A stretch of 63,818 nt of DNA, the filler included, from Octopus bimaculoides (lineage: Eukaryota): the NCBI RefSeq assembly GCF_001194135.2. It is 6 parts of 6 records of this genome, joined end to end, with 100 filler letters (N's around TTAATTAATTAA, not from the genome) between each part and the next. Parts side by side here need not be neighbours in the genome. Positions count along the whole stretch, not along the records: positions 1 to 26,280 come from NC_068995.1; positions 26,381 to 46,168 come from NC_068981.1; 4 more parts are not named here. The stretch is one strand, 5' to 3'. The notes beneath the pieces were generated by a model. The model was not told the DNA's origin and searched no databases. It saw only the letters and a list, made by a program, of their open reading frames with translations. This document shows, piece by piece, positions 1,199 to 45,910 of the stretch. The position numbers and the translations under genes were made by a program. How positions within the stretch are numbered: position 1 is the stretch's first letter; each line of letters begins with the position of its first letter.

Positions 1199-1670
1199 AG
1201 CTTAGAGCATTAGATTCCATGGAAGAAAGCAGCGAATGTATACGAAAACAAAGACGGAAAAAAAAACGAGAATGTTACACAAATACACATGCAAATAACA
1301 GGACATAGCAACAGGTGTCTTTCGACTAAGTACGAATTAAATTAAGCTGGCGTGTGTGAAAGTAAAGCCTTGCGGCAGGAACATAAGATTTGACAGGCAC
1401 AAGGAGGAATATAGATGTTGCACGGATGTTAGTCGAACCAAGAAAGAAAGGTCAGGCTTGGCTGAACACCAGTCACATGGGGAGAGAAGAGAGAGGGTGG
1501 TGGAGGCAGAGGGATAGAAGAATTAAGGAGGGGTGAGAAAAAAATGAAAGGGACAGAGTGTAGTGAACGAGGAGGGAAAGTGAGCCTAGGCACATGTTGT
1601 TATGTCCTGTTTTTCCGTCTTTATCGTATGCATTCGCTGCTTTTTTCCAGGGAATCTAATGCTCTTAGCT
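1199..1670. mobile_element. Short element with inverted arms, probably Penelope-like pseudo-LTR derived
   Basis: 1199-~1318 (agcttagagcattagattccatggaagaaagcagcgaatg...) is the reverse complement of 1590-1670 with indels. The right end abuts a gap. Confidence 0.55.
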
Positions 1671-4600
1671 NNNNNNNNNNNNNNNNNNNNNNNNNNNNNN
1701 NNNNNNNNNNNNNNNNNNNNNNNNNNNNNNNNNNNNNNNNNNNNNNNNNNNNNNNNNNNNNNNNNNNNNNNNNNNNNNNNNNNNNNNNNNNNNNNNNNNN
1801 NNNNNNNNNNNNNNNNNNNNNNNNNNNNNNNNNNNNNNNNNNNNNNNNNNNNNNNNNNNNNNNNNNNNNNNNNNNNNNNNNNNNNNNNNNNNNNNNNNNN
1901 NNNNNNNNNNNNNNNNNNNNNNNNNNNNNNNNNNNNNNNNNNNNNNNNNNNNNNNNNNNNNNNNNNNNNNNNNNNNNNNNNNNNNNNNNNNNNNNNNNNN
2001 NNNNNNNNNNNNNNNNNNNNNNNNNNNNNNNNNNNNNNNNNNNNNNNNNNNNNNNNNNNNNNNNNNNNNNNNNNNNNNNNNNNNNNNNNNNNNNNNNNNN
2101 NNNNNNNNNNNNNNNNNNNNNNNNNNNNNNNNNNNNNNNNNNNNNNNNNNNNNNNNNNNNNNNNNNNNNNNNNNNNNNNNNNNNNNNNNNNNNNNNNNNN
2201 NNNNNNNNNNNNNNNNNNNNNNNNNNNNNNNNNNNNNNNNNNNNNNNNNNNNNNNNNNNNNNNNNNNNNNNNNNNNNNNNNNNNNNNNNNNNNNNNNNNN
2301 NNNNNNNNNNNNNNNNNNNNNNNNNNNNNNNNNNNNNNNNNNNNNNNNNNNNNNNNNNNNNNNNNNNNNNNNNNNNNNNNNNNNNNNNNNNNNNNNNNNN
2401 NNNNNNNNNNNNNNNNNNNNNNNNNNNNNNNNNNNNNNNNNNNNNNNNNNNNNNNNNNNNNNNNNNNNNNNNNNNATATATATAAGCAATGTTAATTCTC
2501 TAAATGAAGTATTAACAGTAACTGCACGATAGAGTGTAGTATATTGCCACTTAAGTGTGGCTGACCCCTAGGGATGGATGTCCTGTTTGCCAAGGGAAGT
2601 TATCCCTCTCACCACGATCTGCAGCACGAACGGATCCGGATTTCAGGGTTATTTCCCTTCGTCGGCGTTCGATAGCTACTGGAGTAACTGATATAATTAC
2701 TTTTCACATTTCGTTATGCAAATATGAGTGTATCTTTTGGTGAAATAAGATTTTTTGAAACGAAGGACTTGGAAATAGACTAACATGATGGAACATGATA
2801 GAAAGTATCGTAAATATGATATGTAATAATGAAAATAAACAAAACAAAAGTGCATGTAAATAGAAAAAAAATAGAAAAATATATAATGAAGTATAATACA
2901 ACAACCAAAAGAAAACAAAGTACACAGAGATCAATGAATATCTGTTGGTGACACACTCTTCAGTGTTTGAAAGAAAGTATAAGAAGGGAAATTAGAAGGT
3001 GAAGAACAAAATAAAGAAAAAATGGTGAACGGATTGATAACAATCCAGAAGAAAAATCCGAGATGAATAGAGGAAATACCAAAAGAAAGTGAAGCATAAA
3101 CAAAAGCCATATGCACAAAATTGCAATGTCAACAGGCTAAACGTTACGCGATGAAATTGCAGATCTGAAACAAAAACTGATGGGAAATGTACAGCTGTAT
3201 GTTGATCTTATAGTAAACAGTTACTTCTGAGTCAAATGGCTTTTTTTCTTTCACCATTTATCTGTCTACCTATATAGATAGATACATAGATAGATAGACA
3301 GACAGACAGAATGACAGATAGATAGATAGATAGATAGATATATAGATAGATAGATAGATAGATAGATAGATAGATAGATAGATAGATGGATATACATATG
3401 TAACTACTTAAGACAGTGAATGAGTGTAAGTCTGTACATGTAAGTACGCATGTATGCATGTGTGCTTGCATATGTGTGTGCGTATGTATATGTGTGGGTA
3501 TGTGTGTCTGTCTGTGTGTCTGTATGTCTGTGTAAACACAATCATATTTTTCTTTTGTTATTAATGGGCACAAGTCAAAGAGTTGCTTAAAGTCCGAGAG
3601 TTTCTTGCATTGGCACTTAACAAATTGGTCTCGAATCCGATATTCCTGTTTGTATAATTAACTTACATACATATATAAAATATAAATTTATATGTGTATG
3701 TACGTATATGTTATACCAATATGAGTGGACGTGTTAACATATACGAATGAACACACTAACTAACTTTGTGCATACATATATATGCAAACACATAGAAACA
3801 TATATATTAATGTATATACCTACTCACCTATCTACGTATGCATAGTGTAATTTGTGTGCATGTATGTATGCAAAAAAATATTTCACATACGTATCCATAT
3901 ATATGCGTGTGTTCCTGTGTACATACATATATATATATATATATATATATATATATATATANNNNNNNNNNNNNNNNNNNNNNNNNNNNNNNNNNNNNNN
4001 NNNNNNNNNNNNNNNNNNNNNNNNNNNNNNNNNNNNNNNNNNNNNNNNNNNNNNNNNNNNNNNNNNNNNNNNNNNNNNNNNNNNNNNNNNNNNNNNNNNN
4101 NNNNNNNNNNNNNNNNNNNNNNNNNNNNNNNNNNNNNNNNNNNNNNNNNNNNNNNNNNNNNNNNNNNNNNNNNNNNNNNNNNNNNNNNNNNNNNNNNNNN
4201 NNNNNNNNNNNNNNNNNNNNNNNNNNNNNNNNNNNNNNNNNNNNNNNNNNNNNNNNNATAGCTGCGGAGATGAAGGAGTTGAATCAGAATATATGTATAT
4301 TTACGTAATTGTTTAGTTGCTTTTTTTCTTCTTTTTGTTCCTTTTCTTTATATGAAAGTTTTCTTCATCTGCAATTTAAATATGCTATTTCCTTTCGATT
4401 ATTTTTTTTAGGTATTAAGTGTTTTATCGTGTACATATTTGCTTTAAAGGCTATTGGTGCTTTGCATTTTTGGCTGTCTTCGTTGCTACCATTTTGCCGC
4501 TGGTATTTTCTTCTTTTTTCCTTTTCCTTTTCTAATTGTTTTCATTGTTGTTATGGCAACACCGATTGATAAAATGTCACCAGTTCAATATTTGCACAAA

Positions 4601-45090: not shown

Positions 45091-45754
45091 GTTAACTCCA
45101 TCCCAAAGATGGAGCCTTGTATAAGTGGAAGATTTATAATAATTAAAAAAAATTGAAGAGACATACATACAGACAGATAGACAGACAGAAAGATATATAC
45201 ACATATATGTGTGTGTGTATTTGTGTGAGTGTGCAAACGATGTAAGCTCTACTTCACTCAGTGGACAGGAATCCTAAAAACTCGCTCAATCCGAAGATTT
45301 TTTTAAACTCCAGGAACGAGGTATTCTATCAATGCCGGCGTCTAAAACGTTTCCTATTTCAGATTTGGAATTCTCTATTCGTTGAATAGTCCCACCACAG
45401 TTCCTATGGCCGGAATCGACGTAAGAAGGATAACCCAGTCCCACAATATGGGCAATTAATTTTTGTTTACAAAACCAACTAACCGTTACTATTTCCTTCT
45501 CCAGTTCTAAAGAGGTTATGCGCCTTTAGCCATTTATAAGTCTGACGAATGTCCTATACTGCTAAGCGCTTTGTAGGTGCGAAACCAACGGTCACTCTAT
45601 GACTGATCATAACTTTTAACGTCTTGATACACACACACACACACACACACACACACACACACACACACACACACATATATATATATATNNNNNNNNNNTA
45701 TATATACATACATAAATACACACAAACACACGAATATATATATATATAGTTGAA

Positions 45755-45910
45755 ATTTACAGAAAAACAAAAGACAGGTGTATAAACAAACAAGCAGGTG
45801 TATTAGTTTGACGCCCGGGAAGGTGAGAAAGTTTTTTTACGTTTCGCGCCTACGCTCTTCAACAGAAAGGAACACAGAAATAAACAAAGGAAGAATAAAA
45901 AAAACTTTTG
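45755..45910 (-). mobile_element. Penelope-like terminal repeat fragment with a degenerate hammerhead-like core
   Basis: Minus strand ctttCTGTTGAagagcgtaggcgcGAAACGTAaaaaac, resembling PLE terminal motifs. Confidence 0.45.

What the first reader, a model, noticed from the sequence alone, without database searches (positions are those of the whole stretch)
1199..45868. Recurrent short inverted-arm elements carrying minimal hammerhead folds with a shared non-canonical core
Three elements unrelated in primary sequence (1199-1670, 29139-29666, 38189-38557) share one architecture: 370-530 bp closed by 40-90-bp inverted arms. Two contain a complete minimal type I hammerhead fold with a palindromic stem III, and both read CCGAUGA instead of CUGAUGA (U4C). 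A fourth motif (45835-45868) reads CUGUUGA (A6U). Established: Penelope-like element pseudo-LTRs carry minimal type I hammerheads and can be inverted, and Penelope RT and GIY-YIG fragments are present in this window. Inference: the same core change in two different families suggests a fixed cephalopod hammerhead variant (attenuated, or active only as a dimer) on retrozyme-like non-autonomous elements, rather than random decay.
Basis: partly seen in the sequence, partly recalled or inferred. Interest (0 to 1): 0.72.

Follow-up and report, generated by a model that had tools for sequence, protein, structure and literature searches.

The report
Recurrent C4 hammerheads in Penelope parasites

Summary
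The motifs are real, but the "inverted arms" are not element ends. 29139-29721 and 38149-38557 are copies of two ORF-less families with 540- and 346-nt units. Their copies lie as head-to-tail partial tandems with fixed 3' ends, 5' truncation, an inverted 5' piece and a tail, which is the Penelope (PLE) insertion signature. U4C (CCGA) is not copy decay. Stems covary in these lineages. It is not a fixed cephalopod variant: one genome-wide pattern gives 445 CCGA against 503 CUGA, and a canonical family lies at 45542. 1199-1670 has no hammerhead. 45835-45868 is a GIY-YIG-linked pLTR with family-wide A6U. U4C is known from a viroid as a weakened but viable core, and PLE insertion in vitro does not need cleavage. 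Cleavage and circles are untested. The scan noted CCGA cores and retrozyme-like PLE parasites before on other DNA (e1-10319565, e1-10343035).

The parts
29139..29627 (-). E2 main copy: positions 59-540 of a 540-nt ORF-less unit, 5'-truncated, fixed 3' end followed by TA-rich target
29435..29493 (-). E2 minimal type I hammerhead: 6-bp stem I, core CCGAUGA (C3 at 29487, C4 at 29486), one extra A on each side of stem II, palindromic stem III ACGCGU, predicted cut after GUC
29619..29721 (+). E2 inverted 5' piece (unit 493-540) plus tail (unit 1-56, 29667-29721)
38236..38557 (+). E3 main copy: positions 25-346 of a 343-346-nt ORF-less unit
38368..38415 (+). E3 minimal type I hammerhead: core CCGAUGA (38374-38380), 4-bp stem II, palindromic stem III AUGUUAACAU, predicted cut after AUC
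38149..38228 (-). E3 inverted 5' piece (unit 300-346, 38189-38228) plus about 40-nt tail (38149-38188, read by eye)
2484..2681 (-).
45734..45933 (-). E4: 3' end (pLTR) of a PLE whose longer copies carry a GIY-YIG coding stretch upstream; hammerhead about 45835-45871 with core CUGUUGA (A6U)
45430..45625 (+).
995..1585 (-). E1 main copy: part of a roughly 790-800-nt partial-tandem repeat unit; no hammerhead found
1610..1670 (+). E1 inverted internal piece, cut by the assembly gap at 1671
61103..61477 (+). PLE RT fragment in a separate stretch of the pack; relatives in the genome continue into a GIY-YIG-type domain. Candidate class of helper, not linked

Best explanation
The 540-, 346- and 347-nt families are ORF-less tandem-unit retroelements of the retrozyme type, likely copied in trans by Penelope (PLE) RT-endonuclease proteins, and their CCGA core is a lineage-level allele that became fixed separately in several master elements and likely gives a slower, dimer- or protein-dependent ribozyme that these elements tolerate. 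Shown: unit structure, fixed 3' ends, variable 5' truncation, inverted 5' pieces, tails, TA-rich targets, allele distribution, stem covariation, coexistence with CUGA lineages. Inferred: a more-than-unit RNA (tandem read-through or ligated circle) is the template; the PLE protein nicks AT-rich DNA and starts reverse transcription at an internal site, which sets the fixed 3' end and tail; strand switching gives the inverted piece, so the 'arms' are insertion by-products. Inferred: U4C persists because it is a mild core change and because copying can use uncut RNA, while the other core positions and the stems stay under selection.
For: Architecture: upstream direct partial copy in 21 of 69 E2 and 30 of 70 E3 loci, upstream inverted piece in 33 of 69 and 30 of 70; 63 of 70 E3 main copies end at unit 330-350; E2 has two end clusters (29 at 530-540, 21 at 410-420). 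This matches the published PLE layout. Longest Met-ORF 43-57 aa; no linked PLE coding sequence in 70 E3, 70 E2 or 28 E5 loci. The upstream copy runs through the predicted cut site and core in 6 E3 and 1 E2 loci, so the template was uncut or re-ligated there. E3: core CpG 34 CG/22 TG/17 CA, like all 19 CpG columns together (584/273/255), so CCG is ancestral and most CUGA copies are deamination products. E2: canonical subfamilies (16-row and 3-row groups, plus a 4-row CUGAAGA clade) lie outside a large C4 clade that spawned further subfamilies. E5: 98 of 100 listed matches have C4 and 39 of 39 other scored loci are 99-100% identical over 103 nt. Covariation: E2 three clear two-sided changes (stem I AU>GC 8 rows, stem II UA/GC 9 rows, GC>AU 8 rows); E3 palindrome CG/UA 33/15 rows; E5 versus its U4 sister keeps stems I and III by two-sided changes. 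Units fold far better than shuffles as circles (z -9.4, -3.9, -7.3) and E5 co-folds as a double hammerhead. Literature: U4C lowers activity in vitro yet supports viroid infectivity (PMC3088659); hammerhead mutants do not block PLE insertion in vitro (PMC11167929).
Against: No cleavage or circle shown. RNA reads from 3 runs of one study (about 6% of each read) are modest in number, lie on both orientations, cross the predicted cut site and show no pile-up of ends. No autonomous partner was identified for E2, E3 or E5. E3 pattern sample has 33 TG vs 13 CA at the core CpG and a starred 5-row U4 clade, so real U4 sub-lineages may exist in E3. The E2 tree is midpoint-rooted and the E5 tree gives no direction. 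A nested E2 subfamily amplified with U3 against G8, which points to looser constraint on catalysis than the model assumes. The covariation rests on few events (three in E2, one in E3); by the measure 'pairs with change on both sides' it does not beat shuffles (197/500 and 65/500). E1 spreads with the same layout and no recognisable hammerhead.
Confidence: 0.6

Rival explanations
1. Adaptive tuning: U4C is favoured because slower cutting leaves more uncut or multimeric RNA for PLE reverse transcription, so C4 masters out-compete U4 sisters.
For: C4 recurs in at least four unrelated families (E2, E3, E5, the L235 family) plus single motifs in L073, L232, L283; it creates a CpG that decays in DNA; the very young E5 lineage is C4; uncut RNA is the main substrate in vitro.
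Against: U4 lineages are as numerous (503 vs 445; 7 vs 2 in arbitrary stretches). E2 shows returns to U4. Ages of U4 sister lineages were not measured systematically. Drift at a tolerant position explains the same pattern.
Confidence: 0.17
2. Dead ribozyme, live scaffold: these cores no longer cut; the fold is kept only as a structure (protein binding or rod stability).
For: U4C plus minimal stem III plus the extra A in E2; a U3-G8 subfamily amplified; A6U fixed in E4; no cut ends in RNA; E1 has no hammerhead; Naiads spread without one.
Against: G5, A6, G8, A9, G12-A14 and the cut triplet stay at family majority in C4 lineages; the stem III palindrome, which matters for dimer cleavage, covaries; U4C is active in a viroid. 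Ordinary RNA-seq would not show cut ends.
Confidence: 0.16
3. One reading: one fixed cephalopod hammerhead variant inherited by these families.
For: C4 in several families of this genome; scan notes report CCGA in other genomes (unchecked).
Against: Canonical cores in sister subfamilies, in E6, in arbitrary stretches and in published Hydra-1_oBim; carriers share no sequence.
Confidence: 0.03
4. Copy-level decay of canonical cores.
For: E3 copies are old (median end branch 0.088).
Against: C4 is majority or clade-defining in E2, E3 and E5, and decay runs from CCG to CTG/CCA.
Confidence: 0.02
5. MITE-like DNA transposons with terminal inverted repeats.
For: Each window copy has arms of 43-64 nt.
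Against: Arm length and position differ from copy to copy, more than half of the loci show none, and units lie head to tail.
Confidence: 0.02

Closest known systems
Metazoan non-LTR retrozymes (Cervera and de la Pena 2020, PMC7229834: passages and section 14 read; Li, Clavereau and Pollet, bioRxiv 10.64898/2026.07.22.740005: part 1 of 5 and passages read)
   Same: ORF-less units of about 350 nt (E3, E5) in head-to-tail repeats, one type I hammerhead per unit, GC 36-45%, strongly self-paired predicted RNA, proposed dependence on PLEs.
   Different: Core CCGA; E2 unit is 540 nt; copies are mostly one unit plus a partial unit with PLE-type inversion and tail, not long arrays; cleavage and circles not shown here.
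Minimal hammerheads in pLTRs of EN+ Penelope-like elements (Cervera and de la Pena 2014, PMC4209133: parts 1-2 of 4 read; Craig et al. 2021, PMC8557442 / bioRxiv 2021.04.23.441226: passages, supplement part 2 incl. File S2)
   Same: Small palindromic helix III, extra nucleotide beside stem II, partial tandems, inverted 5'-truncated copy, 30-40-bp tail, (TA)n targets. E4 and the L235 family are such pLTRs.
   Different: All 34 File S2 rows seen have CUGA; the 2014 paper reports U3-A8 as core variant in the parts read, not U4C or A6U. E2, E3 and E5 have no ORF in the unit.
U4C hammerhead of a viroid (Ambros and Flores 1998, seen only second-hand in Perreault et al. 2011, PMC3088659: passages and section 8; the original was not held)
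   Same: Same core change, described as much weaker in vitro but sufficient in vivo.
   Different: There one natural variant of an RNA replicon; here fixed in whole retroelement lineages with tens to hundreds of genomic copies and a minimal, dimer-type stem III.
PAc Poseidon element of Anolis (Frangieh et al. 2024, PMC11167929: passages read; author name recalled)
   Same: Internal initiation of reverse transcription, AT-rich targets, tail, protein-assisted hammerhead that is dispensable for insertion in vitro.
   Different: Autonomous element; the passages read test C3/G8 mutants and do not mention U4C.

Membership tests
PLE-mobilised insertion (E2, E3, E5) | Head-to-tail partial tandems with variable 5' truncation and fixed 3' end | tested here: met
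PLE-mobilised insertion (E2, E3, E5) | Inverted 5'-truncated copy next to the 5' end | tested here: met
   33 of 69 E2 and 30 of 70 E3 loci; E5 example L251
PLE-mobilised insertion (E2, E3, E5) | 30-40-bp tail at one end; AT-rich or (TA)n target | tested here: met
   E3 tails, E2 tail and (TA)n flanks read by eye; E5 (TA)n
Autonomous EN+ PLE (E2, E3, E5) | RT plus GIY-YIG ORF inside the repeating unit | tested here: not met
   Met-ORFs <=57 aa; tblastn hits in 0 of 70 E3, 3 of 70 E2 and 1 of 28 E5 loci, all on the other strand or downstream
Autonomous EN+ PLE (E4) | GIY-YIG coding sequence upstream of the hammerhead-bearing pLTR on the same strand | tested here: met
   4 of 30 loci; Atlas neighbours carry PF01541 in 18-40% of members; no Pfam hit; blastp to an RT-EN ORF E 5e-11. 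RT part and clade not tested; 'Neptune-like' is recalled from motifs
Non-LTR retrozyme | Non-coding tandem unit of about 170-400 nt | tested here: met
   E3 346, E5 347 nt; E2 at 540 nt is above the range
Non-LTR retrozyme | Type I hammerhead fold in each unit | tested here: met
Non-LTR retrozyme | Self-cleavage in vitro | not testable with these tools
   needs bench assay
Non-LTR retrozyme | Abundant unit-length circular RNA | tested here: inconclusive
   Joints going back 344-349 nt in RNA reads fit circles or tandem genomic copies alike; predicted self-pairing only
Canonical hammerhead core | C3 U4 G5 A6 N7 G8 A9 ... G12 A13 A14 | tested here: not met
   U4C in E2, E3, E5; A6U in 25 of 34 E4 rows, with A6 in only 1; met in E6
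Minimal PLE hammerhead | Short palindromic helix III that can pair between two copies | tested here: met
   palindromes in E2, E3, E5; dimer co-fold more stable than two monomers (prediction only)
MITE / TIR DNA transposon | Same terminal inverted repeats in all copies | tested here: not met
Hydra clade of PLEs | Hydra-type RT (DKT motif) and endonuclease without CCHH in the element or its partner | not tested
   no partner identified; only the (TA)n target and the extra nucleotides beside stem II resemble File S2 rows

The most novel reading that the evidence does not exclude
Penelope-type elements and their parasites repeatedly tune their hammerhead down by the same core change (U4C), against CpG decay, because insertion needs uncut multimeric RNA while occasional dimer- or protein-assisted cutting still makes circles. 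The U4/C4 sister lineages in this genome would then be natural matched pairs for testing what PLE hammerheads are for.
Probability: 0.2. Interest if true: 0.68.

Novelty: new variant of a known kind. Interest (0 to 1): 0.42.

Why it matters
The role of hammerheads in Penelope-like elements is stated to be unclear, and they proved dispensable for insertion in vitro. Lineages that kept amplifying, one very recently, with a weakened-type core but covarying stems, beside canonical sister lineages, make the question testable with matched natural pairs. Descriptors that demand CUGA also miss a sizeable share of these motifs (445 of 948 matches for one architecture). The element type and the base change are each known; their recurrent combination was not found in the searches run, which do not cover most subscription journals or figure panels.

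Tried and rejected
Rfam: whole-window scan listed only microsatellite matches among the best 150 of 263; four sub-region scans gave no hammerhead model. Search for an autonomous partner: 50 PLE RT loci (30 + 20 extended) showed no blastn match to the E2 or E3 unit and few intact pLTRs because of gaps. Hammerhead in E1: only a stemless CUGAGGA..GAAU stretch, rejected. Alternative register for E4 with core UUGAAGA: rejected, stems I and II do not pair. Sequencing runs: no RNA holder listed in the index; three added RNA runs were laid twice and gave no ends; run X16 (another organism label, contigs) holds E5-like pieces but the shown tables do not give its position-4 allele. The viroid U4C paper could not be read. 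Paper searches for U4C found only PMC3088659; two searches found nothing; nothing relevant; PMC6155905 passages had nothing on core variants. Searching the Craig supplement for CCGA strings returned 10 passages, none from the hammerhead table. Scan look-ups by sequence for E2, E3 and E5 found nothing. One search used faulty patterns and was replaced. Rows dropped: A1 uses 37 of 55 distinct E2 rows (the C4-derived clade; 18 outgroup and CUGAAGA/GGA-type rows left out because of length differences); A2 uses 58 of 72 E3 rows (14 with indels or off-target left out); trees left out hits under 200 nt. Supplements of the 2014 paper and of the bioRxiv preprints were not seen and may list further core variants.
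Full report
Setting. The window is a pack of six stretches (joints) from a 2.34-Gb genome. I take it to be an octopus from its repeats; this is recalled, no call names it. Element 1 lies on contig C15; elements 2, 3 and the fourth motif lie together on C1. 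The RT fragment is on C2, so the PLE protein pieces are not neighbours of the motifs.

Observation. The arms exist and are 43-64 nt long. The two CCGAUGA folds and the CUGUUGA fold are as described. A stem-checking descriptor gave 65 hits in window plus loci and none in the reversed sequence. Rfam models do not pick these minimal motifs up.

What the elements are. All belong to large families (first-look candidates: E3 598, E2 2452, E1 3214, E4 2491, E5 1407, E6 585; 40 scored each). E2 has a unit of about 540 nt and E3 of 343-346 nt. A full or truncated unit is often preceded by the 3' part of another unit in the same direction (21 of 69 and 30 of 70 loci) or by an inverted piece (33 of 69 and 30 of 70). 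63 of 70 E3 copies end at unit position 330-350, often followed by a tail taken from the start of the next unit. E2 ends cluster at 530-540 (29) and 410-420 (21), usually against (TA)n. This is the layout described for PLE insertions: partial tandems, an inverted 5'-truncated copy and a 30-40-bp tail. The units have no ORF over 57 aa and no linked PLE coding sequence. So the arms are insertion by-products and the units are non-autonomous. E5 is a 347-nt unit of the same kind. E1 is a roughly 790-800-nt partial-tandem repeat without a recognisable hammerhead; its arm is cut by an assembly gap. E4 is a pLTR: 4 of 30 loci carry GIY-YIG-type coding sequence upstream.

Is U4C fixed or decay? E3: the unbiased pattern gave 94 matches, 41 CCG, 33 CTG, 13 CCA and 7 other (counted by hand). 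In 78 aligned units the core CpG reads 34 CG, 22 TG, 17 CA (this sample was partly chosen by allele), close to the sum over all 19 CpG columns (584, 273, 255), and CTG rows are mostly scattered on the tree. CCG is therefore ancestral and much CUGA is deamination. The TG excess and one starred 5-row U4 clade leave room for true U4 sub-lineages. E2: of the first 100 of 291 pattern matches (reversed control 86), 45 read CCGA, 13 CUGA, 13 UUGA, 2 UCGA, and the rest are decayed or chance (by hand). On the midpoint-rooted tree a 16-row and a 3-row canonical group and a 4-row CUGAAGA clade lie outside a C4 clade that produced further subfamilies, one of them with U3-U4. E5: 185 matches, control 0; 98 of the 100 listed have C4; 39 other scored loci are 99-100% identical to the window copy over 103 nt. 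A sister subfamily at about 80% identity has CUGAAGA. A fourth family (L235, L327-L334) has CCGA, with CUGA relatives (L336, L337, L340, L345); in L235 a GIY-YIG-like frame lies 680 nt upstream on the same strand without a gap (Pfam E 0.029, below cut-off; Atlas 0.94; one locus only). E4 has CUGUUGA in 25 of 34 rows.

Is it the cephalopod norm? No. One architecture gives 445 CCGA and 503 CUGA matches (controls 0 and 4). In 60 arbitrarily placed 10-kb stretches (500,333 bases) a relaxed descriptor gave 18 hits against 2 in the control: 7 CUGA, 2 CCGA, 1 CAGA, 1 CUGU, 1 UUGU and 6 with G3/C8, several of the last doubtful. E6 at 45542 has U4 wherever its core aligns in 14 loci. The published Hydra-1_oBim has CUGAAGA, and all 34 rows of that table read CUGA, though such descriptors may demand it.

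Is the fold under selection? In the E2 C4-derived clade 96.8% of cells pair, with three clear two-sided changes. In E3 92.1% pair and the stem III palindrome switches between CG and UA (33 and 15 rows). Cells count sequences, so these are about three events and one event, and the count of covarying pairs does not beat shuffles (197/500, 65/500). E5 and its U4 sister keep stems I and III by two-sided changes (by eye). The extra nucleotide on both sides of stem II in E2 also occurs in published PLE motifs. One unit per family folds as a circle far below 60 shuffles (z -9.4, -3.9, -7.3), and two E5 motifs co-fold into a double hammerhead, E3 nearly so. These are predictions.

RNA. No RNA holder was indexed. 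Three RNA runs of one study gave 745-949 reads on an E2 unit, mostly under 95% alike, and 560-746 on E5, 161-205 of them at least 99% alike, from 11.5-12.9 million records each. Both orientations are covered, no ends pile up, and reads cross the predicted cut site. Unit-length back-joints fit tandem DNA copies as well as circles. This neither shows nor excludes cleavage.

Mechanism. Shown are structure, alleles and covariation. Inferred from PAc: the PLE protein nicks AT-rich DNA and starts reverse transcription inside the RNA, which explains fixed 3' ends away from the ribozyme site, the tail and the second E2 end at a UA-rich stretch. In 7 loci the upstream copy runs through cut site and core, so the template was uncut or re-ligated. 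PAc hammerhead mutants still insert in vitro, and the ribozyme needs protein help. U4C is weaker in vitro but viable in a viroid. The simplest reading is a tolerant position that fixed several times in master copies and leaves a slow ribozyme (0.6). Selection for slower cutting (0.17) and a dead core on a kept scaffold (0.16) remain open.

Comparison and novelty. The elements work like metazoan non-LTR retrozymes with a PLE insertion footprint; membership awaits cleavage and circle tests. The hammerheads are minimal PLE-type motifs that fail the canonical core at one position. I found U4C in print only for the viroid. Earlier notes of this scan report CCGA cores in Hydra-type PLEs and retrozyme-like PLE parasites in other genomes and elsewhere in this one; they are unchecked and not counted as support. 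Verdict: new variant of a known kind, interest 0.42.

Noticed in passing
window 2484-2681 (-); L246-L265: Very young 347-nt ORF-less family with a U4C hammerhead and two alternative 3' ends in (TA)n; best candidate for bench tests.
   Followed up: yes
window 45430-45625 (+); L346-L360: Old repeat family with a canonical-core hammerhead 300 bp from the A6U motif; GIY-YIG-like hits in 4 of 15 loci, linkage not checked.
   Followed up: partly
L052, L059, L060, L166-L174: E2 subfamily nested in the C4 clade with core UUGAUGA (U3 against G8) and a compensatory stem I change; UCGA copies may be intermediates.
   Followed up: partly
L212:789, L273:2104, L292:413: Hammerhead-like motifs of one family with the C3-G8 pair swapped to G3-C8.
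   Followed up: no
L073:476, L232:278, L283:1910, L335:1501: Further CCGA hammerheads in families not characterised here.
   Followed up: no
L235:4669-6115: Inverted pLTR piece, GIY-YIG-like frame, 3' UTR and CCGA hammerhead in one gap-free stretch: U4C on an autonomous-type PLE end.
   Followed up: partly
window 995-1670; L061-L085: Abundant 790-800-nt partial-tandem repeat with PLE-like layout and no recognisable hammerhead.
   Followed up: partly
L044:1300-2050: Most RNA reads come from diverged relatives of E2 with shared loose ends, suggesting an expressed sister family not fetched here.
   Followed up: no
window 30044-32744 and 44500-45033: Broken non-LTR retrotransposon frames (Pfam RVT_1 and zf-RVT hits in two of them).
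   Followed up: no
window 41962-43496 (-): FLYWCH zinc finger hit followed by transposase-like frames (MULE-like by recall).
   Followed up: no
window 59424-60262 and 17979-19241: Further inverted pairs of 146 and 137 nt at 91%, not examined.
   Followed up: no
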